Virus record (IMG/VR): IMGVR_UViG_3300029661_000108
Strand: one strand, 5' to 3'
Length of the DNA stretch: 64,000 bases
Origin: a virus
Below the pieces are notes generated by a model. That model searched no databases. It was given only the letters and a program-made list of their open reading frames with translations, and was not told where the DNA came from. Positions 21,868 to 40,270 of the stretch are shown in pieces. The position numbers were made by a program, and so were the translations under genes. The first letter of the stretch is position 1. Each line of letters starts with the position of its first letter.

Positions 21868-22770
21868 CTATCTAGAATCTGCTTTGGCTCCTTTCTTTTC
21901 TTGATTTGTTTTTTGAATGCTCTTGATAACATCTATTTTTACACAATCTGAAACATAATCCTCAATAAGAGAATTAAGTTTATCCAACGTTATATCATTA
22001 ACTGTGAGAGAATTATTCTCCAGTAACTTGTTTATTTCACATTCGGCTTTTTTCACATATGTATCAGCCAAATAAATTGCTTCTGAATACTCTATTGGTG
22101 CTGTTTTATATTTCTTAATCTTATTTTTCTCTTTTATTGATAGAAAATCAAGATTCATAAGTGATTCAAAGTTTACTTTTCCATCTAATCTAGCAACTTC
22201 TGAGACCATTTCAGATAAACGTGCAAGATGATGCAACTGCTTTGGGTTATATTTATAAATATCAAAAATTTCTTGTCCAGAATCTGTTCTCTTTTCAAGC
22301 CCCTTTCTTTTTTCATAAATAAATCCCTGCATTGACTTAACAAATCTTTTTACATCCCGATTTGAGATATCGTCTCTCATTTCCTTCAAAGATTTTAAAA
22401 ATAATAAAGTTCTAACACGTTGGTATTCCTTATTTACATAGAAATATGGGGTATATAATAACTCCAGATATGTTGGATTCATCTTATAAAGAAGATTTCC
22501 TAATAATCTAATATCTTTCACTTCAATATGACTCTTATCATTCATGACAAGTTCTTTAGAAATCATATTTGGTCTTTCAAGTAAGTCTTTAAGCGTTGGG
22601 ATAATAAAGCACTTAACATCAAAATCACTGCTATAGTCGTCAGTATATTCGTCAAAACCATAATTCTGGGAACCTTGTAAACACATAAATGCAACATGAT
22701 AATCAGTATTTTCTTTAAGCCAGTTCATTTTCTTTTTCATTTCATTTAATACCATTTGTTTTTTTGCCAT
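21868..22770 (-). CDS. predicted nucleotidyltransferase (Pol-beta-like NTase)
   Basis: GSQNYGFDEYTDDYSSDFDV, matching the G[SG]-x(9-13)-DxD minimal NTase motif. Confidence 0.5.
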   Translation of the reverse strand: MAKKQMVLNEMKKKMNWLKENTDYHVAFMCLQGSQNYGFDEYTDDYSSDFDVKCFIIPTLKDLLERPNMISKELVMNDKSHIEVKDIRLLGNLLYKMNPTYLELLYTPYFYVNKEYQRVRTLLFLKSLKEMRDDISNRDVKRFVKSMQGFIYEKRKGLEKRTDSGQEIFDIYKYNPKQLHHLARLSEMVSEVARLDGKVNFESLMNLDFLSIKEKNKIKKYKTAPIEYSEAIYLADTYVKKAECEINKLLENNSLTVNDITLDKLNSLIEDYVSDCVKIDVIKSIQKTNQEKKGAKADSR

Positions 22771-25342: not shown

Positions 25343-25909
25343 TTATTTATTCTGAATGAATTGATTATCCAGGTACTTTCTTACATTTGTTGCAGACTGC
25401 TCTTGAATCTCAATAATTTGGGCACCATTTATATAGGCTATTTCTTTTAGTTCCCTACTGATTCCCGTATAATCTGATGCTCCTACTACCAATAATGTAT
25501 CTCCTTTACCTAGTTGTGAAACCATTTGTATCGCCTTGTTGTAGTTTGGTGCAATATCCCCATAAAGAATAGGTTTATCTACAAGTAATGATGCATTATC
25601 TAATTCTTCTTCATCTGGAAGTGTTCCATGTAATTCTAGGGCATCACTTCTAGCATCCTTATGTAAGCCATCAATATTCATTGTTATAATAGGAATTTTA
25701 TACTCAGCCAGAGCTATATGAGCATCATTGGGCTTTGCTTCATTCACATTCGCCTTTAATTGTTGGATAACTTCATTATATTCATCAGGAAAACTATTGG
25801 CATATTCTCTTGTCAGTTTATTTCTCAACTCTTTCTGGTTTTCAAAGGTTGGTATACCAGATTCTTGAGAAATACCTGCGCCAGTAAATGCTATTATCAC
25901 CTTTATCAC
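25343..25909 (-). CDS. SIR2-like protein lacking the Zn-ribbon module (188 aa)
   Basis: Sirtuin motifs GAGISQESGIPTF, NIDGLH and catalytic LELHGT. No CxxC...CxxC zinc module, so it is a minimal sirtuin core. Confidence 0.65.
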   Translation of the reverse strand: MIKVIIAFTGAGISQESGIPTFENQKELRNKLTREYANSFPDEYNEVIQQLKANVNEAKPNDAHIALAEYKIPIITMNIDGLHKDARSDALELHGTLPDEEELDNASLLVDKPILYGDIAPNYNKAIQMVSQLGKGDTLLVVGASDYTGISRELKEIAYINGAQIIEIQEQSATNVRKYLDNQFIQNK

Positions 25910-28797: not shown

Positions 28798-29181
28798 ATC
28801 TGCACCTCCATTAATTTAAAAAAAGAGGAGTCAAAGACTCCATGTGAGCAATCTTGTAGCAGTTCTTCTTTTCCCTTCATATTTGATTTTGAATCAAAAG
28901 GATGCTACAACATAATAGAAAAGAAGTTCGCCCACAGCTGAACAATCCGATAGCAATAAAGTTCTTTTTCTGCAAAATGTCTTCTTTACAAAATAAAAGG
29001 AAGCTATCATATATATTTATTGAAATAACAATAAATTTGAAAAAAGAACCACGTCCAGCAATTAATATCTTTTCATTGCATAATTATTATAACATATAAT
29101 TTGTTTTTAGTCAATTTTATTTAAGATTATATGTCTTATTCTTAATTTCTTAAATGGTTATAAGTCGGTGTATTTCATTAC

Positions 29182-30852: not shown

Positions 30853-30913
30853 TGATATTTTCTATAGAAATATTAGCATCTCCTACCATCATTCATATCC
30901 TATTTCCTCTTAT

Positions 30914-31234
30914 TTATTTTTTTGTATCCATTTTCACTATGTAAAGAATATGAGAAGATAAATAAAGATTGTAACAAGCATCTTGAAGATATTTTTCATC
31001 TGTTATGAGATAATTTTCTTTTGCCTTAATATCTTGTTTTATCTTCCATAATGCAACCTTGCCTGCACCCTTCAAATTGCAAAGGAGTTTTGCTGTCCTA
31101 AGACCAGTGACTTCTAAATCTGTATAAGTTACAATCTTTAAGGTAAGACTTTTGAAGAATTTGAAGGGTATTGAAACGAAACCATTTTGGTAGCAATACT
31201 CCAATACATAACTTTCTTTTTTCTCTTTCCACAT
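30914..31234 (-). CDS. hypothetical protein (106 aa), possibly an NfeD-like partner of flotillin
   Basis: Lies immediately downstream of the flotillin gene; speculative. Confidence 0.3.
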   Translation of the reverse strand: MWKEKKESYVLEYCYQNGFVSIPFKFFKSLTLKIVTYTDLEVTGLRTAKLLCNLKGAGKVALWKIKQDIKAKENYLITDEKYLQDACYNLYLSSHILYIVKMDTKK

Positions 31235-31268
31235 TTTTGAACCTCATATTTTATTAAAAAGAGAGGTA

Positions 31269-32726
31269 TTAATCCTCTCTCCTATCATTACTCATTTTTT
31301 CCAATGCTTTCACTCCAACTAATGACCCAAGAATCTGATTAAGATTTAAGCCCAACCCTTGTTCCATTCCTGTATTTACTTGATGAGTTGTCTTCATGAC
31401 ATCCTCAATCAGTTTTGCACTATTCCCTTCACCATACATTGTAATGTTGCCAATCTTTTCAAGTGGTTTGGCTGCCGCTTCAACTGCTTTTGGCCATGCA
31501 TTGAAGTACATTTCTGCAATTGCTGCTTCGCCATATTTTTTCATCGCTTCAGCTTTTTTATCTAATGCTTCAGCTTCAGCAATACCTTTGGCTTCAATAG
31601 CCTTGGCTTCTGCTTCCCCTTTTGTACGGATACCTGATGCTTCCTGCTCCATTTGATATTTTAAGGCTTCAGCTTGTGCTTTCTTGGCTTGAGCTTCTTT
31701 TTCCTGCTCAAATTTCCACGCTTCTGCATTTTGCTGACGTGCATATAAATCAGCGTCTGCTCTTTGCTGTGCAGCAAATTTTTCTGCTTCAGCTTGCTTC
31801 TTGATTTTTGCATCAAGTTCCTGTTCTGTAACTTCAACGTCTTTACGTCTCAATTCAATTTCTTTTTCCTGTCTCATAATATTTGCGTCAGCTGTTGCAA
31901 TTTCAATTGCTTTACGAGACTGTTCCTGCTGAATTGTATATGCTGCATCTGCTTCAGCTTGTTTTGCATCTGCAGTCTTCTTTAATTCAGCTTTTTTGAT
32001 AGCTAATTCATTATTCTTTTCTGCAATAATTGTTTCAGCAGCAATTTTTGCATCATTTGCTTCCTGGAATGCTTTTGACTGAGCCTGAGCAATATCTCTT
32101 TCACTCACAGCACGAGAAATTGCCGCATTTTTTTGAATCTTTACAATATTGTCAACCCCAAGATTTTCAATAACACCATTGCCATCAACAAAATTCTGAA
32201 CATTAAACGAAACAATATCCAAACCCATCTTTGCCAAATCAGGTTCAGCATTCTCCTTTACCAATTCAGCAAACTTCTGTCTATCGGAAACCATTTCCTC
32301 AAGATTCATACGTCCTACGATTTCACGCATATTCCCTTCCAAAACTTCTCTTGCAACATTGGCAATATAATCAACTCTCTTATTCAAGAAGTTCTGTGCA
32401 GCTAATCCTAAACGTTCACTGTTATCACTAATCTTGACATTGACTGCTGCATCTACATTAATGTTGATATAGTCAGCGGTTGGTACAGCACTAGACGTTT
32501 TGACATCAATGGGAATTAACTGTAAATTCAATTCATCTTTCTTCTCTAGAAATGGAATTTTAATTCCTGCTTTCCCAATTAAAACCTTTGGTTGTTTTCT
32601 CAGTCCTGAAATAATATACGCAGTGTCTGGTGATGCCTTGACATATCCTGTCAATACAATCACTAAAATAAGAGCTCCTACTAAAACACCTGTAATCACT
32701 CCAGGATTCATTAAAAAATCTAACAT
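31269..32726 (-). CDS. floT: flotillin-family protein (SPFH domain, FloT/YuaG-like)
   Basis: N-terminal TM, SPFH domain, then a long Ala/Glu/Lys/Gln-rich coiled-coil typical of flotillins. Confidence 0.8.
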   Translation of the reverse strand: MLDFLMNPGVITGVLVGALILVIVLTGYVKASPDTAYIISGLRKQPKVLIGKAGIKIPFLEKKDELNLQLIPIDVKTSSAVPTADYININVDAAVNVKISDNSERLGLAAQNFLNKRVDYIANVAREVLEGNMREIVGRMNLEEMVSDRQKFAELVKENAEPDLAKMGLDIVSFNVQNFVDGNGVIENLGVDNIVKIQKNAAISRAVSERDIAQAQSKAFQEANDAKIAAETIIAEKNNELAIKKAELKKTADAKQAEADAAYTIQQEQSRKAIEIATADANIMRQEKEIELRRKDVEVTEQELDAKIKKQAEAEKFAAQQRADADLYARQQNAEAWKFEQEKEAQAKKAQAEALKYQMEQEASGIRTKGEAEAKAIEAKGIAEAEALDKKAEAMKKYGEAAIAEMYFNAWPKAVEAAAKPLEKIGNITMYGEGNSAKLIEDVMKTTHQVNTGMEQGLGLNLNQILGSLVGVKALEKMSNDRRED

Positions 32727-32800
32727 AATCTACCTCCTTTCTTTTTATTCAATTGTTTCATTCTTATTTGTTAAACTTTCTTATTTCATGTCTTCACCTC

Positions 32801-32835
32801 AAAAAAAGAATGCAGACAGGTGCATTCTTTTTTTA
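32801..32835. terminator. bidirectional intrinsic terminator
   Basis: A-run, AGAATGCA-gacagg-TGCATTCT, then T-run. Confidence 0.5.
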
Positions 32836-33045
32836 TATGCTTTGTCATTTATTTGCACCTGTCCTTTCTTTATGAGTCTATTATATCATTTATTTGTTAT
32901 TTTTACAATAATTTTTTCTATATATTTATGAAAATAACAAATGTTTAACTGTTTTGCCTTTGCTGTCATTATATAAAGAAAAAGACATACCTCATTTGAT
33001 ACGTCTTTTCCTTATCATAATATAATATTTATAAACTATGGAACT

Positions 33046-33306
33046 TTATTCTACATAATTGCATCTTTCAATCTTTACTTTATCAGAATGTTTCCATCCA
33101 ATTGCTCTTGTCTTTGCCTGACACATTGGACAGCTGCAATGTATTTTACTTTTAGCAAGTCTGTGTGTTTGCCCATTTGTGAATTCCTCTAAAACTCCCT
33201 CACCATAACTATTCAAAATCTTTTTCTTTCTTTCAATAATCCTGAATTCATTCTTTCTAGAAACTGCTCTATTATGTCTTTTTTCAGTATATGACATTGT
33301 CTTCAC
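33046..33306 (-). CDS. hypothetical Cys-containing small protein (86 aa)
   Basis: ORF with CSCPMC and C-terminal C; function unknown. Confidence 0.3.
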   Translation of the reverse strand: MKTMSYTEKRHNRAVSRKNEFRIIERKKKILNSYGEGVLEEFTNGQTHRLAKSKIHCSCPMCQAKTRAIGWKHSDKVKIERCNYVE

Positions 33307-33461
33307 CTCACTGAATACTTATAAAAATCGTGAAAAGAAAGCCATTCACCTCTCCAAGTGAACAGCCAATATTATACAGGTCCTCTCACGATTTCCATAA
33401 TTCTATTTTACCATAGATTATTAGGATAAAGAAAAATAGAACTGTTGTATTCTATCATGAT

Positions 33462-33671
33462 TTATATAATATAGATTTCACCTTTAACGATTTCATCATT
33501 ATATAGCCCATTATAATAAATAATCTTTTTATCAGTTACATAATAGATTTCCAAATCATTAATCTTGTTAAGAATTATTTTTTTATGTTTTAAGGAATCC
33601 TTAACTTCCTTAATGATTCTGCTTTCTTCAATATTGAATCCATTACTCTGTATTTCTAGTTTATATTTCAT
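33462..33671 (-). CDS. hypothetical protein (69 aa)
   Basis: ORF only. Confidence 0.25.
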   Translation of the reverse strand: MKYKLEIQSNGFNIEESRIIKEVKDSLKHKKIILNKINDLEIYYVTDKKIIYYNGLYNDEIVKGEIYII

Positions 33672-33698
33672 TATCTCACCTCCGTTCTTTTATTCTTT

Positions 33699-34301
33699 TT
33701 ACTCTTTTAAACTCCTTATAAATACTTTCAGCAATCTTTCATCATATTGAGAAGATTCTTCCAATAATCTCTGAATAGCCTCTTGCTTCGTTAGTGTTTG
33801 CTTGTAGCATCTTTGATATGTTAAAGCATCATAACTATCTACAATTGCAACTATTTTTGCTTCTAAAGGGATAGTATCTCCCTTTAAATTCTGCAAATAT
33901 CCACTCCCATTATTTCTTTCATGATGATATAAGACAATATTTTGGCAAACGCTTGCAAAATCAAAATCTTCATCTGTTTTACAGTATTTAAAAAGATTAC
34001 AGAGATAATATGTTCCATATTGAGTATGATTTTGAATAATCTGATATTCCCTATTTGTTAATGTTTTCTTTTTTGAAAGAATTTCCAAAGGAATAGCAAG
34101 TTTCCCTATATCATGAACAAGAGCCGCCAATTCAACATGAAACTTAAATAAATCAGTTAAGTTTAACGAAGGGATATCCTTGTCCAATCTCTCAACAAAT
34201 CTTTTTATATACATTGACACATTTTCTGAATGGTCGTTGAAAAAGTTTTTTTGAGAAGTGACAAGATGATTAAATTCATCTTCAACAGCTTTTGATATCA
34301 T
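33699..34301 (-). CDS. HD-domain / HD-GYP-like phosphohydrolase (200 aa)
   Basis: HDIGKL (HD motif) and HHERNNGSGYLQ, resembling HHExxDGSGYP of HD-GYP domains. Confidence 0.6.
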   Translation of the reverse strand: MISKAVEDEFNHLVTSQKNFFNDHSENVSMYIKRFVERLDKDIPSLNLTDLFKFHVELAALVHDIGKLAIPLEILSKKKTLTNREYQIIQNHTQYGTYYLCNLFKYCKTDEDFDFASVCQNIVLYHHERNNGSGYLQNLKGDTIPLEAKIVAIVDSYDALTYQRCYKQTLTKQEAIQRLLEESSQYDERLLKVFIRSLKE

Positions 34302-34495
34302 TTAAAAATCACCTCATTAAGATACTTTAGTACCTTTTATTTATTTAAATTTATAATACTTAACTTATTACTTTCTTTTGCAAAGTATAAAATCATATAA
34401 AAACCTGTTACATATTTACAATTTCTTTAAATCATGCTACATTTATATTATAAATCAACTCTTATTTCAAGAGTTTCAAAAGGGAGGAATGTATT

Positions 34496-35299
34496 ATGAA
34501 GCTCAGTTTTAAGAAATTTTTTGTTGGGGTATCAATTTTAGCATTAACTTTTGCTGCTATAAATGTAACCCCAGTATTCGCAGCAGATTTAGATGATATT
34601 TATGAAAAAGAAATATCTGAATCTATTATTGCTGGTGACGGAAGTGCTGAAAACCCTTATATTTTAAATGAAGAAACCTCGCCGATGTTTACACAGTATT
34701 TAGAAGAAAAGGGTAAAGAAGCTATAGTGTCTTTACAAGTTCCAACAGTATCAACATTTGGTTTATTTGATGGCATTTTAAGTGGTACATCTCACGGAAC
34801 TGCACCAAATGGTGCCTATTGGAAATATACGAGTGGAGCACCAAATGTTAATAGTAATGGTAATGTATGGATGAAAAGTGTTGAATATATGACTTACAAT
34901 GAAGTAAAAAATATGGTGGCAGGGTTTAATTCAAGTTCATATGTTTCAGTGTTTAAAGGTAGTATTACAGAAATTGCTGGATGGAGCTTAACTAAAGCTG
35001 TTAATCATCTTATAAACAAAGGAATACAAAAGAGTATAGCAACAGCTTTTGCAACTTGGCTTGGTTGCGGAACAACTTTTATTGGTGCATATCTTATATT
35101 AGAAGAATACAGTACTTTTACGAAACAAAGACCATATATAAGAGCCCATGAAGCTGGTGTAGGACTTATTCATGCAGCATATAATACTTCTTATCAAGGA
35201 AAATGGTATGGTCATTCTGCATCTGATTTATGGCCAACTTATCCAATTGCTAAAGACCCTGGAATAATGTATGGAAAAGGAACTTATGTGAAAAAATGA
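34496..35299 (+). CDS. secreted hypothetical protein (267 aa)
   Basis: N-terminal signal peptide ending VFAAD. Confidence 0.45.
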   Translation: MKLSFKKFFVGVSILALTFAAINVTPVFAADLDDIYEKEISESIIAGDGSAENPYILNEETSPMFTQYLEEKGKEAIVSLQVPTVSTFGLFDGILSGTSHGTAPNGAYWKYTSGAPNVNSNGNVWMKSVEYMTYNEVKNMVAGFNSSSYVSVFKGSITEIAGWSLTKAVNHLINKGIQKSIATAFATWLGCGTTFIGAYLILEEYSTFTKQRPYIRAHEAGVGLIHAAYNTSYQGKWYGHSASDLWPTYPIAKDPGIMYGKGTYVKK

Positions 35300-35583
35300 T
35301 ATTTTACTTTTTAATTGAAACCATTACTTTATTATTAATCTTTATTAATATTCTAAAACTTATTAAAAAAAATGATTTAAAAAAATACATTATATTTATT
35401 GAGGGAGGATTAATAGTTTCTTTTATTTCAATATATTTGTTTGTATATTTCAATGGATATCTTCCTCATATCACAGAAGAATTAAATAAAAATGGATTTT
35501 TATATCCTTTTCATTTAATTTCTATTCTCGTGTGGGTAGTTTTAAATAGTATTATTCTTCATAAGCAAAAAAAAAATAAATAG
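35296..35583 (+). CDS. small membrane protein (95 aa)
   Basis: Three hydrophobic helices; overlaps the upstream stop by 4 nt. Confidence 0.35.
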   Translation: MIFYFLIETITLLLIFINILKLIKKNDLKKYIIFIEGGLIVSFISIYLFVYFNGYLPHITEELNKNGFLYPFHLISILVWVVLNSIILHKQKKNK

Positions 35584-35951
35584 AATCTTACTCTATAAAT
35601 GAATATCATTTATAGAGTCTTTTTTATTTCTAATTCACTTAAATCTAAGTATTGAAATATAAATATATTGCGAACGTTCCTATGAACCCTAACTCTTCAA
35701 GTGTCTAACATAGGCTTTTCCAAGTTTTTCTTCTGTTTCTCAATTGATATGAGTCATTGTCCCCTATTGCCTTTTACGTCGGTCTCATGTTACTGGCACA
35801 ACTTCGCAGATACATAAGTTCTTTTGTTATGACTGATTTAAAATTTACCTTCTTTGATTATATCTGATAAAGTTATTGTTCTCTTGTATTGTGAAATCAC
35901 TTATGGGCACAAAATGCCCAGATGTCTTTTCATTATAATAAATTTCTTCTT

Positions 35952-36025
35952 TGGTGTGAAAGACGGGAATCGAACCCGTATAGTTGGAGCCACAATCCAC
36001 CACACTACCATTGTGCTACAATCAC
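35952..36025 (-). tRNA. tRNA, probably His (GTG); two mismatches in the acceptor stem
   Basis: T-arm ACGGG-TTCGATT-CCCGT plus ACCA. Anticodon arm GTGGA-TTGTGGC-TCCAA read by hand. Confidence 0.45.
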
Positions 36026-36079
36026 CATCATTATTTTATAAAGCAACACGCAAAAAGTGAGTGTTCGTCATAAAATATT

Positions 36080-36154
36080 TGGTACCCAATATAGGAATCG
36101 AACCTATAATTGATGGTTCGTAGCCATCTGTTTTATCCATTAGACTAATTGGGT
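36080..36154 (-). tRNA. tRNA-Arg (ACG)
   Basis: Acceptor ACCCAAT/ATTGGGT, anticodon arm GATGG-CTACGAA-CCATC, T-arm ATAGG-TTCGATT-CCTAT, ACCA. Confidence 0.65.
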
Positions 36155-36162
36155 ATGTTTTT

Positions 36163-36236
36163 TGGAGGCCTCGACCAGACTTGAACTGGTATAAATAGGG
36201 TTGCAGCCTATTGCATAGCCATTCTGCCACGAGGTC
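36163..36236 (-). tRNA. tRNA-Cys (GCA)
   Basis: Anticodon arm ATAGG-CTGCAAC-CCTAT; T-arm ACCAG-TTCAAGT-CTGGT; TCCA end. Confidence 0.6.
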
Positions 36237-36279
36237 GCAAATATTTTCTTTTTGTTTTACAATATTTAACTTTATATTT

Positions 36280-37359
36280 TCATTTAATGACCCATTGAAG
36301 TTTTGAATCATCAGTAAAATATAATTCTCCTCCATAATCAGAGCACCAACTTTTGTCCAAATTGACTTTTTCTTCATTGTTTTTCAATTCTATTTCATAA
36401 TCTTGTTTCATCTGAGAAACTAAATTATCTTCTCGTGAAATTGAAATATTACTCTTCAAAGTTTTGTTTATAATAACATTTCCACTAATAAGACTATCTT
36501 TAAATTCATCTATAGTGGCTTTTTTAATGATTTTTTTATATATTTTTTTATTTGCACTTTCATAACAACAAATCTGTAATACTTTGCGTATTTGAAAATT
36601 AGGCTCATATCTTCCTGCTAAATAAATAATTATTGGGTTTACATAGTTACTAAATGTAAAAAGTCTTTTTTCTTTATCATCTAATTTTAGAGGAAATAAA
36701 ATGATATAATCATATTTTTTATTTTCATCTAATTCACATAAAGAAGAACAAGTGTCCTCAACTCCATTATAGTTATAGATAATTTCATAATTCAAAAAAT
36801 AATTATTTATAAGTTTTTTAATATCCTCATACTCTTTTATTTCTTTCAAAGGCTTTGCTTTCATTTTCTTTTGATTAAGAACATCAATAATAATATTTAT
36901 ATATTCTTCTGTGACATTTTTATTATTAATAAATATAGGCTCAGATGTAAAATCGGTTGTACGATATAACTGAATTGTTTTTTCTCTATATATTTCATTT
37001 AAAACGTTAGCTACTTTATCAATATGATTGACATAAATATCCTTTTTCAAGAAAATATTTTCAATATAAAACTTTAAAACATCTTGCCAATTATTATTAA
37101 CAAATAAATTTTCCATATCTTCTGGTGATGTAACATAAAAAAGTGTTTTTAACTTATCCATCAAAATCTCTGATTTTATAAATGAGTCTTTTGTAAACAT
37201 ACTACTTAATTTATTATAATTGTCTATAGTTTCCTCTACATTTTCTCGAAGATGTTTTCCATGAAAAGCTTCTTCAAGGTTATTATAATATTTTTCCTTA
37301 TACAAAAAACCATCTGAATATGTCGGTGACAGATTTAACTCTTTAATATTTGTTATCAT
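36280..37359 (-). CDS. hypothetical protein (359 aa) embedded between two tRNA blocks
   Basis: Long ORF with no recognised motif. Confidence 0.45.
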   Translation of the reverse strand: MITNIKELNLSPTYSDGFLYKEKYYNNLEEAFHGKHLRENVEETIDNYNKLSSMFTKDSFIKSEILMDKLKTLFYVTSPEDMENLFVNNNWQDVLKFYIENIFLKKDIYVNHIDKVANVLNEIYREKTIQLYRTTDFTSEPIFINNKNVTEEYINIIIDVLNQKKMKAKPLKEIKEYEDIKKLINNYFLNYEIIYNYNGVEDTCSSLCELDENKKYDYIILFPLKLDDKEKRLFTFSNYVNPIIIYLAGRYEPNFQIRKVLQICCYESANKKIYKKIIKKATIDEFKDSLISGNVIINKTLKSNISISREDNLVSQMKQDYEIELKNNEEKVNLDKSWCSDYGGELYFTDDSKLQWVIK

Positions 37360-37635
37360 ATAACACCTCTCTCGTCCATCTAAAGGCTTTATAGTAGCTT
37401 TTTAAAAACTAGTTAAAATAAATCAATACTCCTAAAAAACCCCTGCTGGCATCTGCCATATATATTCTGGAGTGCTTTTCAGTATTCTGACTTACCATGC
37501 CTATATCAGAAGTTTGGTGAACTGAAAAGAATTTTTCGGATAAGGTTTTACATGGATATTTATATACCTTATACCTGTAGAGGAAAATTTTAGAATATGT
37601 TATCAGCAAAAACAATTTATATCCTAAATAATATT

Positions 37636-37671
37636 TGGTGCTCATAGTAGGATTTGAACCTACATATGGGC
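37636..37671 (-). other. tRNA 3'-half-like minihelix (acceptor + T-arm only)
   Basis: Reverse complement gives GCCCATA-GTAGG-TTCAAAT-CCTAC-TATGAGC-ACCA. No D-arm or anticodon arm. Confidence 0.4.
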
Positions 37672-37676
37672 ATTTT

Positions 37677-37751
37677 GGTAGGAATAATAGGAATCGAACC
37701 TATATTGCACGATTATCGGTCGTGAGTACTCACCAGTTGTACGATACTCCT
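37677..37751 (-). tRNA. tRNA-Ile (GAT) with C33 in the anticodon loop
   Basis: Acceptor AGGAGTA/TATTCCT, anticodon arm CACGA-CCGATAA-TCGTG, T-arm ATAGG-TTCGATT-CCTAT. Confidence 0.55.
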
Positions 37752-37754
37752 ATA

Positions 37755-37828
37755 TGGTATCCGTTGGTGGTAATGCTCCACCGTCTTCAAGTTGTAAGGA
37801 TGATGTTCTCCTTTTAAACTAAACGGAT
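37755..37828 (-). tRNA. tRNA-like element, possibly Val (TAC), with a non-canonical T-loop and weak anticodon stem
   Basis: Perfect acceptor ATCCGTT/AACGGAT plus ACCA. D-arm GTT-TAAAAGGAG-AAC. Loop CTTACAA. T-arm GGTGG-AGCATTA-CCACC. Confidence 0.35.
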
Positions 37829-37829
37829 A

Positions 37830-37906
37830 TGGTCTCGATAAAAGGATTTGAACCTTTACAAACTCGGTCCCAGGCCGAGTGCACTACCAAATTATGCTAT
37901 ATCGAG
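37830..37906 (-). tRNA. tRNA-Pro (TGG) with C33
   Basis: Acceptor CTCGATA/TATCGAG, anticodon arm CTCGG-CCTGGGA-CCGAG, T-arm AAAGG-TTCAAAT-CCTTT. Confidence 0.6.
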
Positions 37907-38032
37907 AGGAAAGAGAATATCTCTTCCGTAATTATGCTGGACCAGACATAATATGTTTATCTATCACTACAATAGACTGGACTCCGAGATACTTCCCAAT
38001 ATCTTATCTTTACCTTATTTCATGAAGGAAAT

Positions 38033-38107
38033 TGGCACCTCTTGAAGGAATTGAACCCTCATCGTGGAGGTAGAAACTCCATGCTCTATCCATTAAGCTA
38101 AAGAGGT
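38033..38107 (-). tRNA. tRNA-Arg (TCT)
   Basis: Anticodon arm TGGAG-TTTCTAC-CTCCA; T-arm GAGGG-TTCAATT-CCTTC. Confidence 0.6.
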
Positions 38108-38310
38108 AATAATGATAACTATTTATCGCAATAGCCTTAGCATCTGACTCCTTATACAGAATATACTTTCATTTTCTATTCTTTCATGCACTTTCAAATA
38201 TACTAAGAAAATATATATTTTCGTCAAAGCCAACCTCCTAGCTCGTGACTATCTGCATCCATTGCTTATGCAGTTTCCACATGGTTTTATTTAATAAATT
38301 ATATAATCAT

Positions 38311-38387
38311 TGGTGGACGATATAGGATTCGAACCTATGACCAGTCGGTTATGAGCCGACAGCTCTAACCATCTGAGCTAAACGTCC
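38311..38387 (-). tRNA. tRNA-Met or Ile2 (CAT)
   Basis: D-arm GCTC-AGATGGTTA-GAGC; anticodon arm GTCGG-CTCATAA-CCGAC; T-arm ATAGG-TTCGAAT-CCTAT. Confidence 0.65.
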
Positions 38388-38399
38388 ATATTTTTAAAA

Positions 38400-38478
38400 T
38401 GGTGGAAACTTTGGAATTCGAATCCAACTGATTTCCTGTGTGCAAAACAGGTGACCACACCTAGCAGTCCCAGTTCCC
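38400..38478 (-). tRNA. tRNA-Ala (TGC) with a G3:U70 pair
   Basis: Acceptor GGGAACT/AGTTTCC (G3-T70), anticodon arm CCTGT-TTTGCAC-ACAGG, T-arm TTGGA-TTCGAAT-TCCAA. Confidence 0.55.
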
Positions 38479-38490
38479 AATAATACATTA

Positions 38491-38578
38491 TGGCGCTGAC
38501 TATAGGACTCGAACCTATGCTAGATTTACATCTAGTACAGTTTAGCAAACCGCTGCTTTACCACTCAGCCAAGTCAGC
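38491..38578 (-). tRNA. class II tRNA, probably Ser (GCT); anticodon arm irregular
   Basis: Acceptor GCTGACT/AGTCAGC, long variable hairpin CTAGAT-gtaa-ATCTAG, T-arm ATAGG-TTCGAGT-CCTAT. The anticodon assignment is uncertain. Confidence 0.45.
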
Positions 38579-38586
38579 AAAAATAT

Positions 38587-38673
38587 TGGTACTCCTAATG
38601 GGAGTCGAACCCATACGAGCTTTTGCCCACAGAAGTTTAAGTTCTGTATGTCTACCGATTTCATCATAGGAGT
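38587..38673 (-). tRNA. tRNA-Leu (TAA)
   Basis: Anticodon arm CAGAA-CTTAAAC-TTCTG, long variable arm, T-arm ATGGG-TTCGACT-CCCAT. Confidence 0.65.
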
Positions 38674-38676
38674 ATT

Positions 38677-38761
38677 TGGTCTTCTCGAAGAGATTTGAAC
38701 TCTTACGCTATAAAGCACTAGTTTCTAAAACTAGCATGTCTACCTATTCCATCACGAGAAG
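38677..38761 (-). tRNA. tRNA-Leu (TAG)
   Basis: Anticodon arm CTAGT-TTTAGAA-ACTAG; T-arm AAGAG-TTCAAAT-CTCTT. Confidence 0.65.
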
Positions 38762-38766
38762 ATGAT

Positions 38767-38843
38767 TGGTGGTTTCAGATGGACTTGAACCAACGCTACG
38801 AGAAGTTTCAGTTATCTGCTCTACCAGATTGAACTATGAAACC
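38767..38843 (-). tRNA. tRNA-Phe (GAA)
   Basis: Acceptor GGTTTCA/TGAAACC, loop CTGAAAC, T-arm GTTGG-TTCAAGT-CCATC. Confidence 0.55.
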
Positions 38844-38857
38844 AGATGAAAAAATAT

Positions 38858-38932
38858 TGGCACCTCTGTAAGGAGTCGAACCTTAAGTTTTGGTTTTGGA
38901 GACCAATGTGTTCCCTTTTACACTACAGAGAT
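38858..38932 (-). tRNA. tRNA-Trp (CCA)
   Basis: Anticodon arm TTGGT-CTCCAAA-ACCAA; T-arm TAAGG-TTCGACT-CCTTA. Confidence 0.6.
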
Positions 38933-38934
38933 AT

Positions 38935-39011
38935 TGGCATCAGGGAGAGGGCTCGAACCTCTAAATGTGGGAGTCAAGGTCCCATGTGCTTACCAGTTTC
39001 ACCACCCTGAT
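38935..39011 (-). tRNA. tRNA-Gln (TTG) with C33
   Basis: Anticodon arm TGGGA-CCTTGAC-TCCCA; T-arm AGAGG-TTCGAGC-CCTCT. Confidence 0.55.
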
Positions 39012-39033
39012 ATCTAAATAGATTTAGTATACT

Positions 39034-39100
39034 TGGAAGTGGTTGAACCCTCATACCCTCTATTAGAAGTCGAGTGCATTACCAACTTTGCTACAAGTAC
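39034..39100 (-). other. degenerate tRNA-like element
   Basis: The reverse complement has a tRNA-like 5' half (GTACTTG-TA-GCAA-AGTTGGTAA-TGC) but lacks a canonical T-arm or acceptor closure. Confidence 0.3.
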
Positions 39101-39142
39101 AATATATAATTTTCATAGTTGAATATATATGAAATTTTTTAA

Positions 39143-39229
39143 TGGTGGGCCCCACTGGATTTGAACCAGCAGCGTTTCTAATGTCACAGATTTACAGTCT
39201 GCTTCCTTCACCAATTTGGATAGAGACCC
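39143..39229 (-). tRNA. tRNA-Tyr (GTA), class II
   Basis: Anticodon arm GCAGA-CTGTAAA-TCTGT; T-arm GCTGG-TTCAAAT-CCAGT; acceptor GGGTCTC/GGGGCCC. Confidence 0.6.
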
Positions 39230-39236
39230 ATATGTT

Positions 39237-39323
39237 TGGCGCTCAGTGAGGGACTCGAACCCCCAAGTCCTTTCAGACCAACTGTTTTCAAGACAGCACG
39301 ACTACCAATTATCACAACTGAGC
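39237..39323 (-). tRNA. tRNA-Ser (TGA), class II
   Basis: Anticodon arm GCTGT-CTTGAAA-ACAGT; T-arm GGGGG-TTCGAGT-CCCTC; acceptor GCTCAGT/ACTGAGC. Confidence 0.6.
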
Positions 39324-39593
39324 GTTTCTAAACTATCATAAATATCAATTGACCTAACAGCACGACTATGGAATTACCCAATGGTTGTTGACAAGAAAGG
39401 TCTCCTAAGATGATATAGTCTTAAACTTTATATAAATAAGCGCACCATACAGGTGTATCATCTCAGGTTTTTCAAGCCTCAAGGTTTCTGGTCTGCCAAT
39501 TATCTACTATAAACCTTTTTTCGATTTAATAAATAATCATAAGATATAATGTTATTCTATAAAATAACTATCCAACAATGAATACAATATATT

Positions 39594-39670
39594 TGGTATC
39601 CGAGGTGGGATTCGAACCCACGATTACCTGATAGAAAGTCAGGGGGCTTAAACCACTTGCCTACTCGGAC
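39594..39670 (-). tRNA. tRNA-Glu (TTC)
   Basis: Anticodon arm CCTGA-CTTTCTA-TCAGG; T-arm GTGGG-TTCGAAT-CCCAC. Confidence 0.55.
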
Positions 39671-39675
39671 ATATT

Positions 39676-39752
39676 TGGCGGACCCTGCAGGACTTGAACC
39701 TGCGACCCTTCGCTTAACAGGCGAACGCTCTAACCAACTGAGCTAAAGGTCC
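39676..39752 (-). tRNA. tRNA-Asn (GTT)
   Basis: D-arm GCTC-AGTTGGTTA-GAGC; anticodon arm TTCGC-CTGTTAA-GCGAA; T-arm GCAGG-TTCAAGT-CCTGC. Confidence 0.7.
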
Positions 39753-39761
39753 ATATAATTT

Positions 39762-39836
39762 TGGAGTGAGTAAAGGGTATCGAACCCTCATCCTCTGCTT
39801 GGAAGGCAGATATACGAACCATTATACTATACCCAC
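39762..39836 (-). tRNA. tRNA-Gly (TCC)
   Basis: Anticodon arm TCTGC-CTTCCAA-GCAGA; T-arm GAGGG-TTCGATA-CCCTT. Confidence 0.6.
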
Positions 39837-39840
39837 AATA

Positions 39841-39916
39841 TGGTGCCATCTGAGAGATTCGAACTCCCAACCAACTGATTACAGGTCAGCTGCACTTCCA
39901 GTTGTGCTAAGGTGGC
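39841..39916 (-). tRNA. tRNA-Thr (TGT) with C33
   Basis: Anticodon arm GCTGA-CCTGTAA-TCAGT; T-arm GGGAG-TTCGAAT-CTCTC. Confidence 0.55.
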
Positions 39917-39920
39917 AAAT

Positions 39921-39995
39921 TGGCGGAACATAGGAGAATTGAACTCCTATCTCTTGATAGACAGTCAAGTATATTTTCCATTATACGAATGCTCC
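39921..39995 (-). tRNA. tRNA-Asp (GTC)
   Basis: Anticodon arm CTTGA-CTGTCTA-TCAAG; T-arm AGGAG-TTCAATT-CTCCT. Confidence 0.6.
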
Positions 39996-39996
39996 A

Positions 39997-40073
39997 TGGT
40001 TGCAGAGGCAGGATTTGAACCTGCGACCTCAGGATAATGAGTCCTGCGAGCTACCAAACTGCTCTACTCTACG
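39997..40073 (-). tRNA. tRNA-Met (CAT), initiator-like with a C1:A72 mismatch
   Basis: Acceptor CGTAGAG/CTCTGCA leaves C1 opposite A72. D-arm GAGC-AGTTTGGTA-GCTC (A11:T24). Loop CTCATTA. T-arm GCAGG-TTCAAAT-CCTGC. Confidence 0.55.
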
Positions 40074-40179
40074 ATATTTCACAAAAGAAAAAGTTCCTCA
40101 TACGAGAAACAATAAAAAAGAAAATTTAAAATATCTCGTTTATTGTTTGTTTTTCACTTCCTTTCGTGATTTCATAGTT

Positions 40180-40208
40180 ATTATAACATATAATATAAAA
40201 TTAGTCAA
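40180..40208 (-). promoter_or_regulatory. putative sigma70-like promoter driving the minus-strand tRNA array
   Basis: On the minus strand, TTGACT (40208-40203), a 17-nt spacer, then TATAAT (40185-40180), about 110 nt upstream of the first tRNA (40073). Confidence 0.35.
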
Positions 40209-40270
40209 TATATAAATAAAAAGTGCATATAAATGCACTCTTCATTTCTATAAACAACATTTAATACAAA

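What the first reader, a model, noticed from the sequence alone, without database searches (positions are those of the whole stretch)
35952..40073. Minus-strand tRNA array with non-canonical members: four tRNAs with C33, a minihelix fragment and degenerate copies
At least 21 canonical tRNAs are present: Arg-ACG, Cys, Arg-TCT, Met/Ile2-CAT, Ala, Ser, Leu-TAA, Leu-TAG, Phe, Trp, Tyr, Ser-TGA, Glu, Asn, Gly, Asp, an initiator-like Met, plus His?, Ile, Pro, Gln and Thr. They are interleaved with a 359-aa ORF and long tRNA-free gaps.

In my hand parse, the Ile(GAT), Pro(TGG), Gln(TTG) and Thr(TGT) tRNAs all have perfect 5-bp anticodon stems enclosing loops CCGATAA, CCTGGGA, CCTTGAC and CCTGTAA. Each has C at position 33, where U33 is almost universal. 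Also present are an acceptor/T-arm minihelix (37636-37671), a Val-like tRNA with an AGCATTA T-loop, and a degenerate tRNA at 39034-39100.

Large, irregular tRNA sets with anticodon-loop variants are typical of big phages and may help evade host anticodon nucleases.
Basis: seen in the sequence. Interest (0 to 1): 0.62.

Follow-up and report, generated by a model that had tools for sequence, protein, structure and literature searches.

The report
Mobile-element tRNAs with cytosine at position 33
A roughly 200 kb plasmid- or phage-like element of the gut bacterium Coprobacillus carries 24 tRNA genes, and four intact ones have C instead of the almost universal U just before the anticodon, a change that recurs in related elements and in viral contigs but is essentially absent from cellular genomes.

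Summary
ARAGORN and the Rfam tRNA model find 24 tRNA-like genes on the minus strand (35952-40073). The covariance model places C at position 33 in Ile(GAU), Pro(UGG), Gln(UUG) and Thr(UGU), scoring 52-61 bits against a threshold of 29.

These are not pseudogenes. Orthologues in diverged syntenic relatives keep the cloverleaf through 3-8 double-sided compensatory changes per tRNA. C33 is invariant in 14 copies of this element.

Across the clade, position 33 switches between U and C in six isoacceptor families. In matched scans, 21 of 414 viral-contig tRNAs lack U33 (18 C, 3 A) against 1 of 625 cellular tRNAs. That one exception lies in a mobile-element-like array. tRNAs from host-family genomes differ from the element's exactly at position 33.

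The "minihelix" is a deletion relic of tRNA-Leu(CAA). The Val-like and second Arg(UCU) copies look degenerate. The 359-aa ORF is replaceable orphan cargo.

Whether the element is a phage is unresolved. Escape from a U33-dependent loop enzyme is plausible but untested, and two characterised anticodon nucleases ignore U33C.

I rate this a new variant of a known kind. Side finds: inversions with crossovers at tRNA 3' ends, and a ROOL RNA present in sibling strains but not here.

The parts
40180..40208 (-). Promoter-like site TTGACT-17-TATAAT with a TG extension, about 105 nt upstream of the first tRNA
   Evidence: 11 of 12 consensus matches. A second copy of the same motif lies at 29075-29115 (family D10). 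This is a consensus match only.
39997..40073 (-). Initiator-like tRNA-Met(CAU): C1xA72 mismatch, loop CUCAUUA (U33, U37)
   Evidence: (58.5 bits)
39921..39995 (-). tRNA-Asp(GUC), loop CUGUCUA (U37)
   Evidence: (57.3 bits)
39841..39916 (-). tRNA-Thr(UGU) with C33 (window 39884), loop CCUGUAA
   Evidence: covariance-model alignment, 59.1 bits; orthologues in L012 and L014 have C33, those in L013 and L015 have U33, and 3 stem pairs changed on both sides.
39762..39836 (-). tRNA-Gly(UCC)
   Evidence: 59.1 bits
39676..39752 (-). tRNA-Asn(GUU); two alleles among strains
   Evidence: (73.1 bits)
39594..39670 (-). tRNA-Glu(UUC), loop CUUUCUA (U37); hypervariable among strains
   Evidence: (61.8 bits)
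39324..39593 (-). 270-nt spacer that is polymorphic among strains and contains a partial duplicate of the 5' part of Ser(UGA)
   Evidence: No Rfam match. Fold z-score -0.24.
39237..39323 (-). tRNA-Ser(UGA)
   Evidence: 46.9 bits
39143..39229 (-). tRNA-Tyr(GUA); anticodon arm identical to that of an Erysipelotrichaceae MAG tRNA-Tyr
   Evidence: (52.8 bits)
39101..39142 (-). 42-nt spacer; in strain L002 and in relatives this site holds a ~575-nt ROOL RNA
39027..39100 (-). Degenerate Arg(UCU)-like tRNA: stem mismatches and no encoded CCA; probable pseudogene
   Evidence: 43.2 bits. Not called by ARAGORN in L007 and L009.
38935..39011 (-). tRNA-Gln(UUG) with C33 (window 38978), loop CCUUGAC
   Evidence: 51.9 bits. 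C33 in L013 and L014, U33 in L015, 8 compensatory pairs.
38858..38932 (-). tRNA-Trp(CCA)
   Evidence: 57.4 bits
38767..38843 (-). tRNA-Phe(GAA)
   Evidence: 50.8 bits
38677..38761 (-). tRNA-Leu(UAG)
   Evidence: 54.3 bits
38587..38673 (-). tRNA-Leu(UAA)
   Evidence: 54.3 bits
38491..38578 (-). tRNA-Ser(GCU)
   Evidence: 60.6 bits
38400..38478 (-). Atypical 79-nt tRNA-Ala(UGC): G3:U70 kept, G8, long D loop; conserved in L015 and L017
   Evidence: Found by ARAGORN only. No Rfam tRNA hit even at E<=10. Orthologues shown.
38311..38387 (-). Elongator Met or Ile2 tRNA (CAU)
   Evidence: 67.9 bits
38108..38310 (-). 203-nt spacer
   Evidence: No Rfam match. Fold z-score -0.86.
38033..38107 (-). tRNA-Arg(UCU)
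   Evidence: 63.7 bits
37907..38032 (-). 126-nt spacer, 84% identical over 100 nt to the spacer after Arg(UCU) in relative L013
   Evidence: Fold z-score -0.10.
37830..37906 (-). tRNA-Pro(UGG) with C32 and C33 (C33 at window 37873), loop CCUGGGA
   Evidence: 61.4 bits; same loop in L012-L014 with 7 compensatory pairs. Host-family cellular Pro has UUUGGGA on the same stem.
37755..37828 (-). Val-like (UAC) degenerate tRNA: T loop AGCAUUA, two broken anticodon-stem pairs
   Evidence: 44.2 bits. Not called by ARAGORN. No orthologue in L012-L014.
37676..37751 (-). tRNA-Ile(GAU) with C33 (window 37718), loop CCGAUAA; its 3' end is an inversion crossover site
   Evidence: 58.3 bits. C33 is also found in L014 and L015 and in the disrupted L013 copy, while position 32 varies. 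Breakpoint mapped.
37636..37671 (-). Acceptor/T-arm 'minihelix' = deletion relic of tRNA-Leu(CAA)
   Evidence: L013 has the intact Leu(CAA) in the same place, with the same 18-nt lead-in. Ten of 14 strain copies have two T-stem mismatches.
36280..37359 (-). 359-aa orphan ORF, variable cargo inside the invertible cassette
   Evidence: No Pfam, PHROG or PADLOC hit. Only 3 hits among 1.84 billion representatives. AF2 pLDDT 31. Replaced by a short ORF in L271 and L272.
36163..36236 (-). tRNA-Cys(GCA)
   Evidence: 53.2 bits
36080..36154 (-). tRNA-Arg(ACG); its 3' end (GGGTACCA) is the crossover site shared by both inversions
   Evidence: (61.4 bits)
35952..36025 (-). tRNA-His(GUG)
   Evidence: 57.2 bits

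Best explanation
The region is a polycistronic array of 24 tRNA-like genes on a ~200 kb plasmid- or phage-like element of Coprobacillus cateniformis. It supplies tRNAs for the element's preferred A-ending codons.

Shown: four of these tRNAs, Ile(GAU), Pro(UGG), Gln(UUG) and Thr(UGU), are intact elongator tRNAs under structural selection. Each carries C instead of U at position 33, the nucleotide immediately 5' of the anticodon.

Inferred: C33 is kept by selection because it marks the element's tRNAs as different from host tRNAs at a nucleotide that loop-directed enzymes read. Two candidate enzyme classes are:
- PrrC/RloC-type anticodon nucleases, which cut the U33-N34 bond.
- U33-dependent modification enzymes, such as the t6A37 machinery or wobble-U modifiers, whose products can themselves be nuclease determinants.
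The element's tRNAs would thus stay usable when host tRNAs are attacked or modified, at a tolerable cost to the U-turn.

The minihelix, the Val-like gene and the second Arg(UCU) copy are decay products of array turnover, not designed parts.
For: Genuine C33 in high-scoring tRNAs.
- The covariance-model alignments show it. All other conserved tRNA features and the encoded CCA are intact.

Selection on structure.
- Among orthologues from relatives whose RepA_N proteins are only 38-47% identical, 3 (Thr), 7 (Pro), 8 (Gln) and 5 (Ile) stem pairs changed on both sides. 94-100% of cells remain paired.

Retention of C.
- C33 is invariant in 14 copies of this element.
- Pro and Gln keep C33 in L012-L014.
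- Ile(GAU) has C33 in all four lineages while neighbouring position 32 varies C/A/U/C.
- The genome is 31% G+C, so mutation pressure favours C to T, yet C persists.

Lability restricted to pyrimidines.
- Thr and Gln switch between U and C among orthologues. Phe and Cys are C33 only in L015. In total 14 of 86 clade tRNAs are C33, and none is A or G.

Specific to mobile elements (same pipeline and same search pattern for both sets).
- Viral contigs: 393 U, 18 C, 3 A.
- Cellular genomes: 624 U, 1 C. Fisher p = 4e-8. The single cellular case is a dense phage-like 24-tRNA array.
- Four control phages: 0 of 44.

Contrast with host-family tRNAs (an Erysipelotrichaceae MAG and related Bacilli MAGs).
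- Thr has CUUGUAA and Gln has CUUUGAC, differing from the element only at position 33. Pro has UUUGGGA on the same stem as L012-L014, differing only at positions 32 and 33.

Biochemical plausibility from the literature.
- PrrC and RloC cleave 3' of U33 (PMC2610378).
- C33 abolishes t6A37 formation by E. coli TsaBCDE (PMC8887486).
- C33 abolishes Elongator action on U34 (PMC11096365).
- The concept of phage tRNAs escaping nucleases through loop mutations is published (PMC10264068).

The tRNA set matches the element's codon preferences.
Against: - No nuclease or modification enzyme was identified in the host or the element, and no cleavage or modification data exist for these tRNAs.
- The two anticodon nucleases tested with U33C, colicin E5 (PMC1635277) and gamma-toxin (PMC2275089), cut it as well as wild type. 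C33 is therefore not a general shield.
- The C33 isoacceptors (Ile, Pro, Gln, Thr, Phe, Cys; elsewhere Lys and Ser) share no obvious known nuclease.
- Switching between U and C is also what relaxed constraint would produce.
- The host comparison used family-level MAGs, not C. cateniformis itself.
- The element is carried stably in isolates. An 'infection-time escape' scenario may therefore not apply as such.
- The viral background sample was drawn with one Thr-arm pattern and is not a census.
Confidence: 0.4

Rival explanations
1. Tolerated, nearly neutral variation. tRNAs on mobile elements are redundant with host tRNAs, so constraint on U33 relaxes to 'any pyrimidine'. C33 drifts in and out without conferring any benefit.
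For: - Position 33 switches between U and C among orthologues about as often as position 32 does.
- Only the mildest substitution, the U-to-C transition, is seen.
- The same arrays contain clearly decaying genes: the Leu(CAA) relic, the Val-like gene, the degenerate Arg(UCU) and the disrupted Ile in L013.
- C33 initiator tRNAs function in eukaryotes (PMC8887486).
Against: - All other invariant tRNA positions and all stems are maintained by compensatory change, so constraint is not generally relaxed.
- C persists against AT mutation pressure in a 31% G+C genome.
- C33 is retained in Ile(GAU) in four lineages while position 32 varies.
- Four control phages with 44 tRNAs show none, so redundancy alone does not produce C33.
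Confidence: 0.3
2. Decoding or modification tuning. C33 prevents host modification of U34 or A37, or alters loop geometry. A single tRNA then reads a whole codon box (Pro CCN, Thr ACN), or the element's genes are translated with different kinetics.
For: - C33 blocks t6A37 formation by the bacterial TsaBCDE system (PMC8887486).
- C33 blocks U34 modification by Elongator (PMC11096365).
- The array has a single Pro tRNA and a single Thr tRNA, both with U34.
- The element uses both CCA and CCT, and both ACA and ACT, heavily.
Against: - Gln(UUG), Ile(GAU), Phe(GAA) and Cys(GCA) sit in split codon boxes. Expanded wobble there would cause misreading.
- No data exist on bacterial wobble-modifying enzymes and U33.
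- The other U34 family-box tRNAs in the array (Ala, Gly, Ser, Leu) keep U33.
Confidence: 0.12
3. Self-immunity. The element itself encodes a loop-directed tRNase, used for host takeover, for exclusion of rivals or as an addiction module. Its own tRNAs carry C33 to be spared.
For: - The window encodes a PIN-domain protein (12804-13646), a SocA/Panacea antitoxin-like protein (697-1257), an RlaP RNA-repair-type nucleotidyltransferase (21868-22770) and an HD-domain protein next to the array.
- PIN-domain VapC toxins are known tRNases (PMC10264068).
Against: - None of these proteins matched a PADLOC model, apart from generic HD/Cas3 similarity.
- No tRNase activity is shown.
- Only 4 of 24 tRNAs are C33. 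A broad tRNase would still hit the remaining element tRNAs.
Confidence: 0.08
4. Artefact or pseudogenes. The C33 calls come from misplaced loops or from dead genes.
For: The array does contain degenerate members.
Against: - ARAGORN and the Rfam covariance model agree on the loops.
- Scores of 52-61 bits lie in the middle of the array's range.
- Stems show compensatory evolution.
- The bases are identical in 14 independent assemblies.
Confidence: 0.03

Closest known systems
Phage tRNAs with anticodon-loop mutations proposed to evade host anticodon nucleases (mycobacteriophage cluster C1, T5-like phages; van den Berg et al. 2023, PMC10264068)
   Same: - A mobile-element tRNA array.
- Its tRNAs differ from host-type tRNAs inside the anticodon loop while remaining structurally intact.
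- The array covers most amino acids.
   Different: - The published cases involve positions near known VapC, colicin or PrrC cleavage sites. That paper does not mention position 33.
- Here the changed base is the near-invariant U33.
- No cognate nuclease is known.
- The carrier may be a plasmid-like replicon rather than a lytic phage.
C33 initiator tRNA-Met of multicellular eukaryotes (PMC8887486)
   Same: A natural, functional tRNA with C at position 33. It shows that the ribosome can use C33 and that C33 changes recognition by the t6A machinery.
   Different: - Those are cytoplasmic initiators.
- Here the C33 tRNAs are elongators for Ile, Pro, Gln and Thr in a bacterial setting.
- The array's own initiator-like Met has U33.
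PrrC / RloC anticodon nucleases (PMC2610378)
   Same: They cleave the phosphodiester bond 3' of U33. That is exactly the nucleotide changed here. RloC occurs in Firmicutes such as Geobacillus.
   Different: - Their known preferred substrates are tRNA-Lys and a few others.
- Their response to U33C was not found in the papers read.
- No homologue was looked for in the host.
tRNA arrays with an embedded ROOL RNA (Rfam RF03087)
   Same: Relatives L013, L014 and L017 and sibling strain L002 carry a ~575-nt ROOL RNA inside the same array.
   Different: The window itself has no ROOL. Only a 42-nt spacer occupies that site.
Site-specific invertible DNA segments (Hin/Gin-type or shufflon-type)
   Same: Two alternative inversions are found in independent assemblies. 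Both have precise reciprocal junctions at a TA dinucleotide inside GGGTACCA or TCCTACCA.
   Different: - The sites are the 3' ends of tRNA genes, and only about 8 nt are shared.
- No recombinase gene was found among the window's ORFs of 150 aa or more.

Membership tests
tRNA (Rfam RF00005): the four C33 genes | Cloverleaf scoring above the family's gathering threshold | tested here: met
   51.9-61.4 bits against a threshold of 29. Also called by ARAGORN.
tRNA (Rfam RF00005): the four C33 genes | Stems maintained by compensatory substitutions among homologues | tested here: met
   3, 7, 8 and 5 pairs changed on both sides in Thr, Pro, Gln and Ile. 94-100% of cells are paired.
tRNA (Rfam RF00005): the four C33 genes | Uridine at position 33 (U-turn) | tested here: not met
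   C at window 37718, 37873, 38978 and 39884.
tRNA (Rfam RF00005): the four C33 genes | Expression, 3' maturation and aminoacylation | not testable with these tools
   CCA is encoded and a promoter-like site precedes the array. No RNA data are available.
Nuclease-evading phage tRNAs (PMC10264068) | Encoded by a phage | tested here: inconclusive
   No structural phage genes in the window or 10 kb on either side. RepA_N and ParA are present. The element is absent from IMG/VR, INPHARED and PLSDB, and present in C. cateniformis isolates.
Nuclease-evading phage tRNAs (PMC10264068) | Anticodon loop differs from that of the host's cognate tRNA | tested here: met
   Erysipelotrichaceae and Bacilli MAG tRNAs have Thr CUUGUAA, Gln CUUUGAC and Pro UUUGGGA. 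The element has CCUGUAA, CCUUGAC and CCUGGGA. The comparison is with the host family, not with C. cateniformis itself.
Nuclease-evading phage tRNAs (PMC10264068) | The difference lies in the recognition or cleavage site of a nuclease present in the host | not tested
PrrC and RloC cut 3' of U33 (PMC2610378), but colicin E5 and gamma-toxin ignore U33C (PMC1635277, PMC2275089).
Nuclease-evading phage tRNAs (PMC10264068) | Demonstrated resistance to cleavage | not testable with these tools
   Requires biochemistry.
Eukaryote-type C33 initiator tRNA | Initiator identity (CAU anticodon, initiator acceptor and anticodon-stem features) | tested here: not met
   The C33 genes read Ile, Pro, Gln and Thr codons. 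The initiator-like Met(CAU) at 39997-40073 has U33.
Functional tRNA minihelix or tRNA-like element (37636-37671) | Helix conserved among copies | tested here: not met
   Ten of 14 strain copies have GAUGG instead of GUAGG, which gives two T-stem mismatches.
Deletion-derived tRNA pseudogene (37636-37671) | Collinear with an intact tRNA in a relative, minus internal arms | tested here: met
   L013 15961-16054 runs: same 18-nt lead-in, acceptor 5' strand, D, anticodon and variable arms of Leu(CAA), then T arm, acceptor 3' strand and CCA.
ROOL RNA (RF03087) | Match to the covariance model in the window | tested here: not met
   No ROOL hit in the window. Hits of 279-304 bits in L013, L014 and L017. 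An 85.7%-identical copy is present in strain L002.
Site-specific invertible segment | Both orientations found in independent samples with identical junctions | tested here: met
   Window 36083-37680 is inverted in L002, L004, L006, L008, L271 and L276. Window 30884-36084 is inverted in L001, L007 and L009.
Site-specific invertible segment | Cognate recombinase gene adjacent | tested here: not met
   No resolvase, invertase or integrase domain among the window's 47 ORFs of 150 aa or more. The remaining ~115 kb of the element (beyond the window and its 10-kb flanks) was not examined.

The most novel reading that the evidence does not exclude
C33 is a general, so far undescribed signature of tRNAs carried by phages and other mobile elements. 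It would be one side of an arms race centred on the nucleotide 5' of the anticodon. Widespread bacterial loop-directed enzymes (PrrC/RloC-like nucleases cutting the 33/34 bond, U-preferring HEPN RNases, or U33-dependent modification enzymes) would depend on U33. Mobile elements would repeatedly escape by the only substitution the ribosome tolerates.
Probability: 0.3. Interest if true: 0.8.

Novelty: new variant of a known kind. Interest (0 to 1): 0.63.

Why it matters
U33 is among the most conserved nucleotides in biology. Natural elongator tRNAs without it are treated as curiosities or as annotation errors.

This work shows intact, co-evolving C33 tRNAs in a very common human-gut element. It also shows that non-U33 tRNAs are about 30 times more frequent in viral contigs than in cellular genomes.

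Three consequences follow:
- There is now a concrete, cheap test for the 'tRNA arms race' idea: compare U33 and C33 substrates with anticodon nucleases and with t6A or wobble-modifying enzymes.
- Position 33 becomes a possible marker for mobile-element tRNAs in metagenomes.
- tRNA annotation pipelines should not flag such genes as pseudogenes.

A cultured host, Coprobacillus cateniformis, exists, so the question is experimentally tractable.

Tried and rejected
- Shifted-loop or pseudogene reading of the C33 genes. Rejected by the covariance-model alignments and by covariation.
- A U34-centred alternative register. Only Pro would keep its identity. Thr and Gln would change amino acid, and Ile has no U at 34. 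Rejected by inspection.
- The minihelix as a designed element. Rejected. It is a Leu(CAA) deletion relic and is mismatched in most strains. My generic minihelix scan was too permissive to be useful.
- Hidden structured RNAs in the three long spacers. No Rfam match at E<=1 and fold z-scores between -0.1 and -0.9.
- Function of the 359-aa ORF.
  - No Pfam, PHROG or PADLOC hit.
  - No PDB match with E below 0.078.
  - Only near-identical fragments plus one 29%-identical protein among 1.84 billion representatives.
  - The single-sequence AF2 model is unusable at pLDDT 31, so no fold search was run.
- Relatives in IMG/VR by protein. None found.
- Relatives in GTDB genomes by a RepA_N profile. None found.
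- PLSDB by DNA. No match.
- INPHARED. Only scattered hits to individual tRNAs.
- Phage-versus-plasmid decision. Walking 10 kb beyond each end of the window and scanning against PHROGs was inconclusive.
- Strain-level SNP density as a way to tell live tRNAs from dead ones. There was too little variation to be informative.

Full report
**What is there**

ARAGORN tRNA genes on the minus strand between 35952 and 40073. The Rfam tRNA covariance model. The two sets differ by one gene each. An atypical 79-nt Ala(UGC) at 38400-38478 is found only by ARAGORN, and Rfam misses it even at E<=10. A Val-like gene at 37758-37828 is found only by Rfam, at 44.2 bits.

Nearly all genes encode their CCA. A strong promoter-like site, TTGACT-17-TGnTATAAT, lies 105 nt upstream of the first gene. 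The array is therefore probably one transcription unit.

The set covers every amino acid except Lys. Val is represented only by the degenerate copy. The anticodons match the element's preferred A-ending codons.

**Position 33**

The covariance-model alignments place a 5-bp stem and a 7-nt loop with C at position 33 in four tRNAs, at top posterior probability:
- Pro(UGG), loop CCUGGGA, 61.4 bits.
- Thr(UGU), loop CCUGUAA, 59.1 bits.
- Ile(GAU), loop CCGAUAA, 58.3 bits.
- Gln(UUG), loop CCUUGAC, 51.9 bits.

The other 19 ARAGORN-called tRNAs and the Val-like gene have U33.

**Source and host**

- The embedded 359-aa ORF occurs with identical sequence in 932 blocks of public assemblies. These are human-gut metagenome contigs of up to ~206 kb.
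- The neighbouring RepA_N protein is present in several cultured Coprobacillus cateniformis assemblies.
- The window and 10 kb on each side encode RepA_N, ParA, DNA polymerase III alpha, a topoisomerase, RecD2- and RecJ-like proteins, an FtsH-like protease, a Y-family polymerase and a LAGLIDADG endonuclease. I saw no capsid, portal or terminase gene and no conjugation gene.
- The element is absent from IMG/VR, INPHARED and PLSDB.

I therefore call it a ~200 kb plasmid- or phage-like element. 'Big phage' is not established.

**Are the C33 genes alive?**

Diverged relatives were found through RepA_N homologues of 38-47% identity. They have the same gene order and tRNA arrays.

Orthologues of the four tRNAs keep the cloverleaf through double-sided compensatory changes. 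Thr has 3 such pairs, Pro 7, Gln 8 and Ile 5, and 94-100% of cells remain paired.

C33 is identical in 14 independent copies of this element. It is kept in Pro and Gln of L012-L014. In Ile(GAU) it is kept in four lineages while neighbouring position 32 varies. Thr and Gln orthologues switch between C and U. In L015 it is Phe, Ile and Cys that carry C33. Across the clade, 14 of 86 tRNAs are C33 and none is A33 or G33.

The genome is 31% G+C. A C held at an unpaired site therefore runs against mutation pressure.

**Is this more than chance?**

I used one pipeline (ARAGORN plus my own loop parser) on loci fetched with one pattern. The pattern was the Thr(UGU) anticodon arm with N at position 33.

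| Source | tRNAs | U33 | C33 | A33 |
|---|---|---|---|---|
| IMG/VR viral contigs, 120 loci | 414 | 393 | 18 | 3 |
| GTDB cellular genomes, 120 loci | 625 | 624 | 1 | 0 |
| Four other tRNA-rich phages | 44 | 44 | 0 | 0 |

- The viral-versus-cellular contrast gives Fisher p = 4e-8.
- The single cellular exception lies in a dense 24-tRNA array with odd anticodons. That array is itself mobile-element-like.
- Excluding the pattern-matching Thr genes, the viral set still has 15 non-U33 among 321 tRNAs.
- Four or more C33 among 23 tRNAs has P = 5.7e-8 at the cellular rate and 0.027 at the viral rate.

Cellular tRNAs from an Erysipelotrichaceae MAG and related Bacilli MAGs have Thr CUUGUAA, Gln CUUUGAC and Pro UUUGGGA. 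Thr and Gln differ from the element's loops only at position 33. Pro, which shares its stem with L012-L014, differs only at positions 32 and 33. Their Tyr anticodon arm is identical to the element's.

**Mechanism**

Shown: intact, co-evolving tRNAs with a genuine C33 that is retained and that is specific to mobile elements.

Inferred: C33 removes a determinant used by a loop-directed enzyme. The literature read here gives support in both directions.

For:
- PrrC and RloC cleave 3' of U33 (PMC2610378).
- C33 abolishes t6A37 formation by E. coli TsaBCDE (PMC8887486).
- C33 abolishes U34 modification by Elongator (PMC11096365).
- The general idea that phage tRNAs escape nucleases through loop mutations is published, without mention of position 33 (PMC10264068).

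Against:
- Colicin E5 and gamma-toxin cut U33C substrates normally (PMC1635277, PMC2275089).
- No nuclease is identified here.
- The set of affected isoacceptors has no obvious common enemy.

The main rival is near-neutral relaxation of U33 to 'any pyrimidine' in redundant tRNAs. Four full-text literature searches on C33, U33, position 33 and phage tRNAs found no description of C33 elongator tRNAs in phages or plasmids.

**The non-canonical members**

- Minihelix (37636-37671). Relative L013 has, directly after its Ile(GAU), the same 18-nt lead-in. An intact Leu(CAA) follows it, with a matching acceptor 5' strand, T arm and acceptor 3' strand. The window copy lacks the D, anticodon and variable arms. 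Ten of 14 strain copies carry two T-stem mismatches. It is a deletion relic.
- Val-like gene. It has a broken T loop and two broken anticodon-stem pairs, and no orthologue in L012-L014.
- Second Arg(UCU) (39027-39100). It has stem mismatches and no CCA, and ARAGORN drops it in two strains. Both this and the Val-like gene look like decaying genes.
- Ala(UGC). Although atypical, it is conserved in three lineages with G3:U70 intact, so it is probably functional.
- The 359-aa ORF. It is an orphan and is replaced by a short ORF in some strains.
- The three long spacers. They show no Rfam match and no folding signal.

**Verdict**

The array as such is ordinary for a large mobile element.

The recurrent, selected C33 is best described as a new variant of the known 'loop-mutated mobile-element tRNA' theme. 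It has a concrete biochemical test attached.

Noticed in passing
window 36083-37680 and 30884-36084; junctions in L002 9680/11275 and L001 11277/16473: Two alternative inversions occur among otherwise ~99%-identical assemblies. Both cross over at a TA inside the 3' end of tRNA-Arg(ACG) (GGG-TA-CCA). One partner is the 3' end of tRNA-Ile(GAU) (TCC-TA-CCA). The other is an intergenic TCC-TA-CCA at ~30886. In the first inversion Arg and Ile end up fused tail to tail and both lose their encoded CCA. Orientation does not track the other indels, which suggests repeated inversion. No recombinase gene was found in the window.
   Followed up: partly
window 39101-39142; L002 12719-13295; L013 14188-14761; L014 13847-14421; L017 17597-18168: A ~575-nt ROOL RNA (RF03087, 279-304 bits) sits inside the tRNA arrays of relatives. 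One sibling strain has it between Tyr and the degenerate Arg(UCU), 85.7% identical to the L013 copy. The window has only a 42-nt spacer at that site, so ROOL is a presence/absence polymorphism.
   Followed up: partly
window 39959 (Asp), 39633 (Glu), 40036 (initiator-like Met): These three tRNAs have U at position 37, which is normally a purine. Their loops are CUGUCUA, CUUUCUA and CUCAUUA. Relatives have the same Asp loop (L012-L015) and Glu loop (L013, L014; L015 has CUUUCAC), and Bacillus phage BCP8-2 has both. Host-family Asp has CUGUCAC. A pyrimidine at 37 occurs in 8/414 viral and 2/625 cellular tRNAs.
   Followed up: partly
window 38400-38478; L015 14644-14722; L017 19905-19983: A 79-nt tRNA-Ala(UGC) with G8, a 9-nt D loop and a 7-nt variable region is conserved in three lineages with G3:U70 intact. 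The Rfam tRNA model does not detect it.
   Followed up: partly
L013 15867-15964: The Ile(GAU) orthologue in this relative carries a 23-nt insertion after position 38, plus A32 and C33. Neither ARAGORN nor Rfam calls it. It is either a disrupted gene or a tRNA with a very small intervening sequence.
   Followed up: no
window 37930-38030 versus L013 15591-15687: The spacer downstream of Arg(UCU) is 84% identical over 100 nt between elements whose RepA_N proteins are about 45% identical. That is as conserved as the tRNAs, yet there is no Rfam match and no folding signal (z -0.1).
   Followed up: partly
window 36294-37365; L271 4031-4185; L272 998-1152: The 359-aa ORF is replaced by a short (~60 aa) unrelated ORF in some strains, in either cassette orientation.
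   Followed up: partly
L272 777-854 (the position of window 36080-36154): One strain has a tRNA with the acceptor, D and T arms of Arg(ACG) but a different, poorly paired anticodon arm. ARAGORN reports a 4-nt anticodon, 'ttcc'.
   Followed up: no
window 39594-39752 and 39324-39593: The Asn-Glu-spacer segment is a hotspot of variation among strains. 12-18% of columns vary here, against 0-3% in the rest of the array. Asn has two alleles, and the 270-nt spacer is replaced by ~110 nt in several strains.
   Followed up: partly
whole array, 35952-40073: There is no tRNA-Lys, although Lys is the most used amino acid in the window's ORFs (9.9%, with AAA at 69% of Lys codons). Relative L017 does carry a Lys(UUU).
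   Followed up: no
L012 12942-13036, L013 12950-13044, L014 12904-12998: In relatives, the first gene of the array is a 95-nt tRNA with a long variable arm and anticodon UAU (Rfam 61-62 bits). The window has the initiator-like Met at that position.
   Followed up: no
L025, L026, L084, L087, L089, L094, L112 (IMG/VR contigs): A Met-Lys-Thr-Gly tRNA cluster recurs in several IMG/VR contigs. Its tRNA-Lys(UUU) has C33 (loop CCUUUAA). tRNA-Lys(UUU) is the classic target of PrrC and PARIS.
   Followed up: no
window 21868-22770, 12804-13646, 697-1257, 25343-25909: The element encodes an RlaP RNA-repair-type nucleotidyltransferase, a PIN-domain protein, a SocA/Panacea antitoxin-like protein and a SIR2-domain protein. 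These are possible RNA-conflict genes. None matched a PADLOC model.
   Followed up: partly
window 40169-40209 and 29075-29115: An 83%-identical 41-nt direct repeat carries the promoter-like motif. One copy precedes the tRNA array and the other precedes the 658-aa ORF.
   Followed up: no
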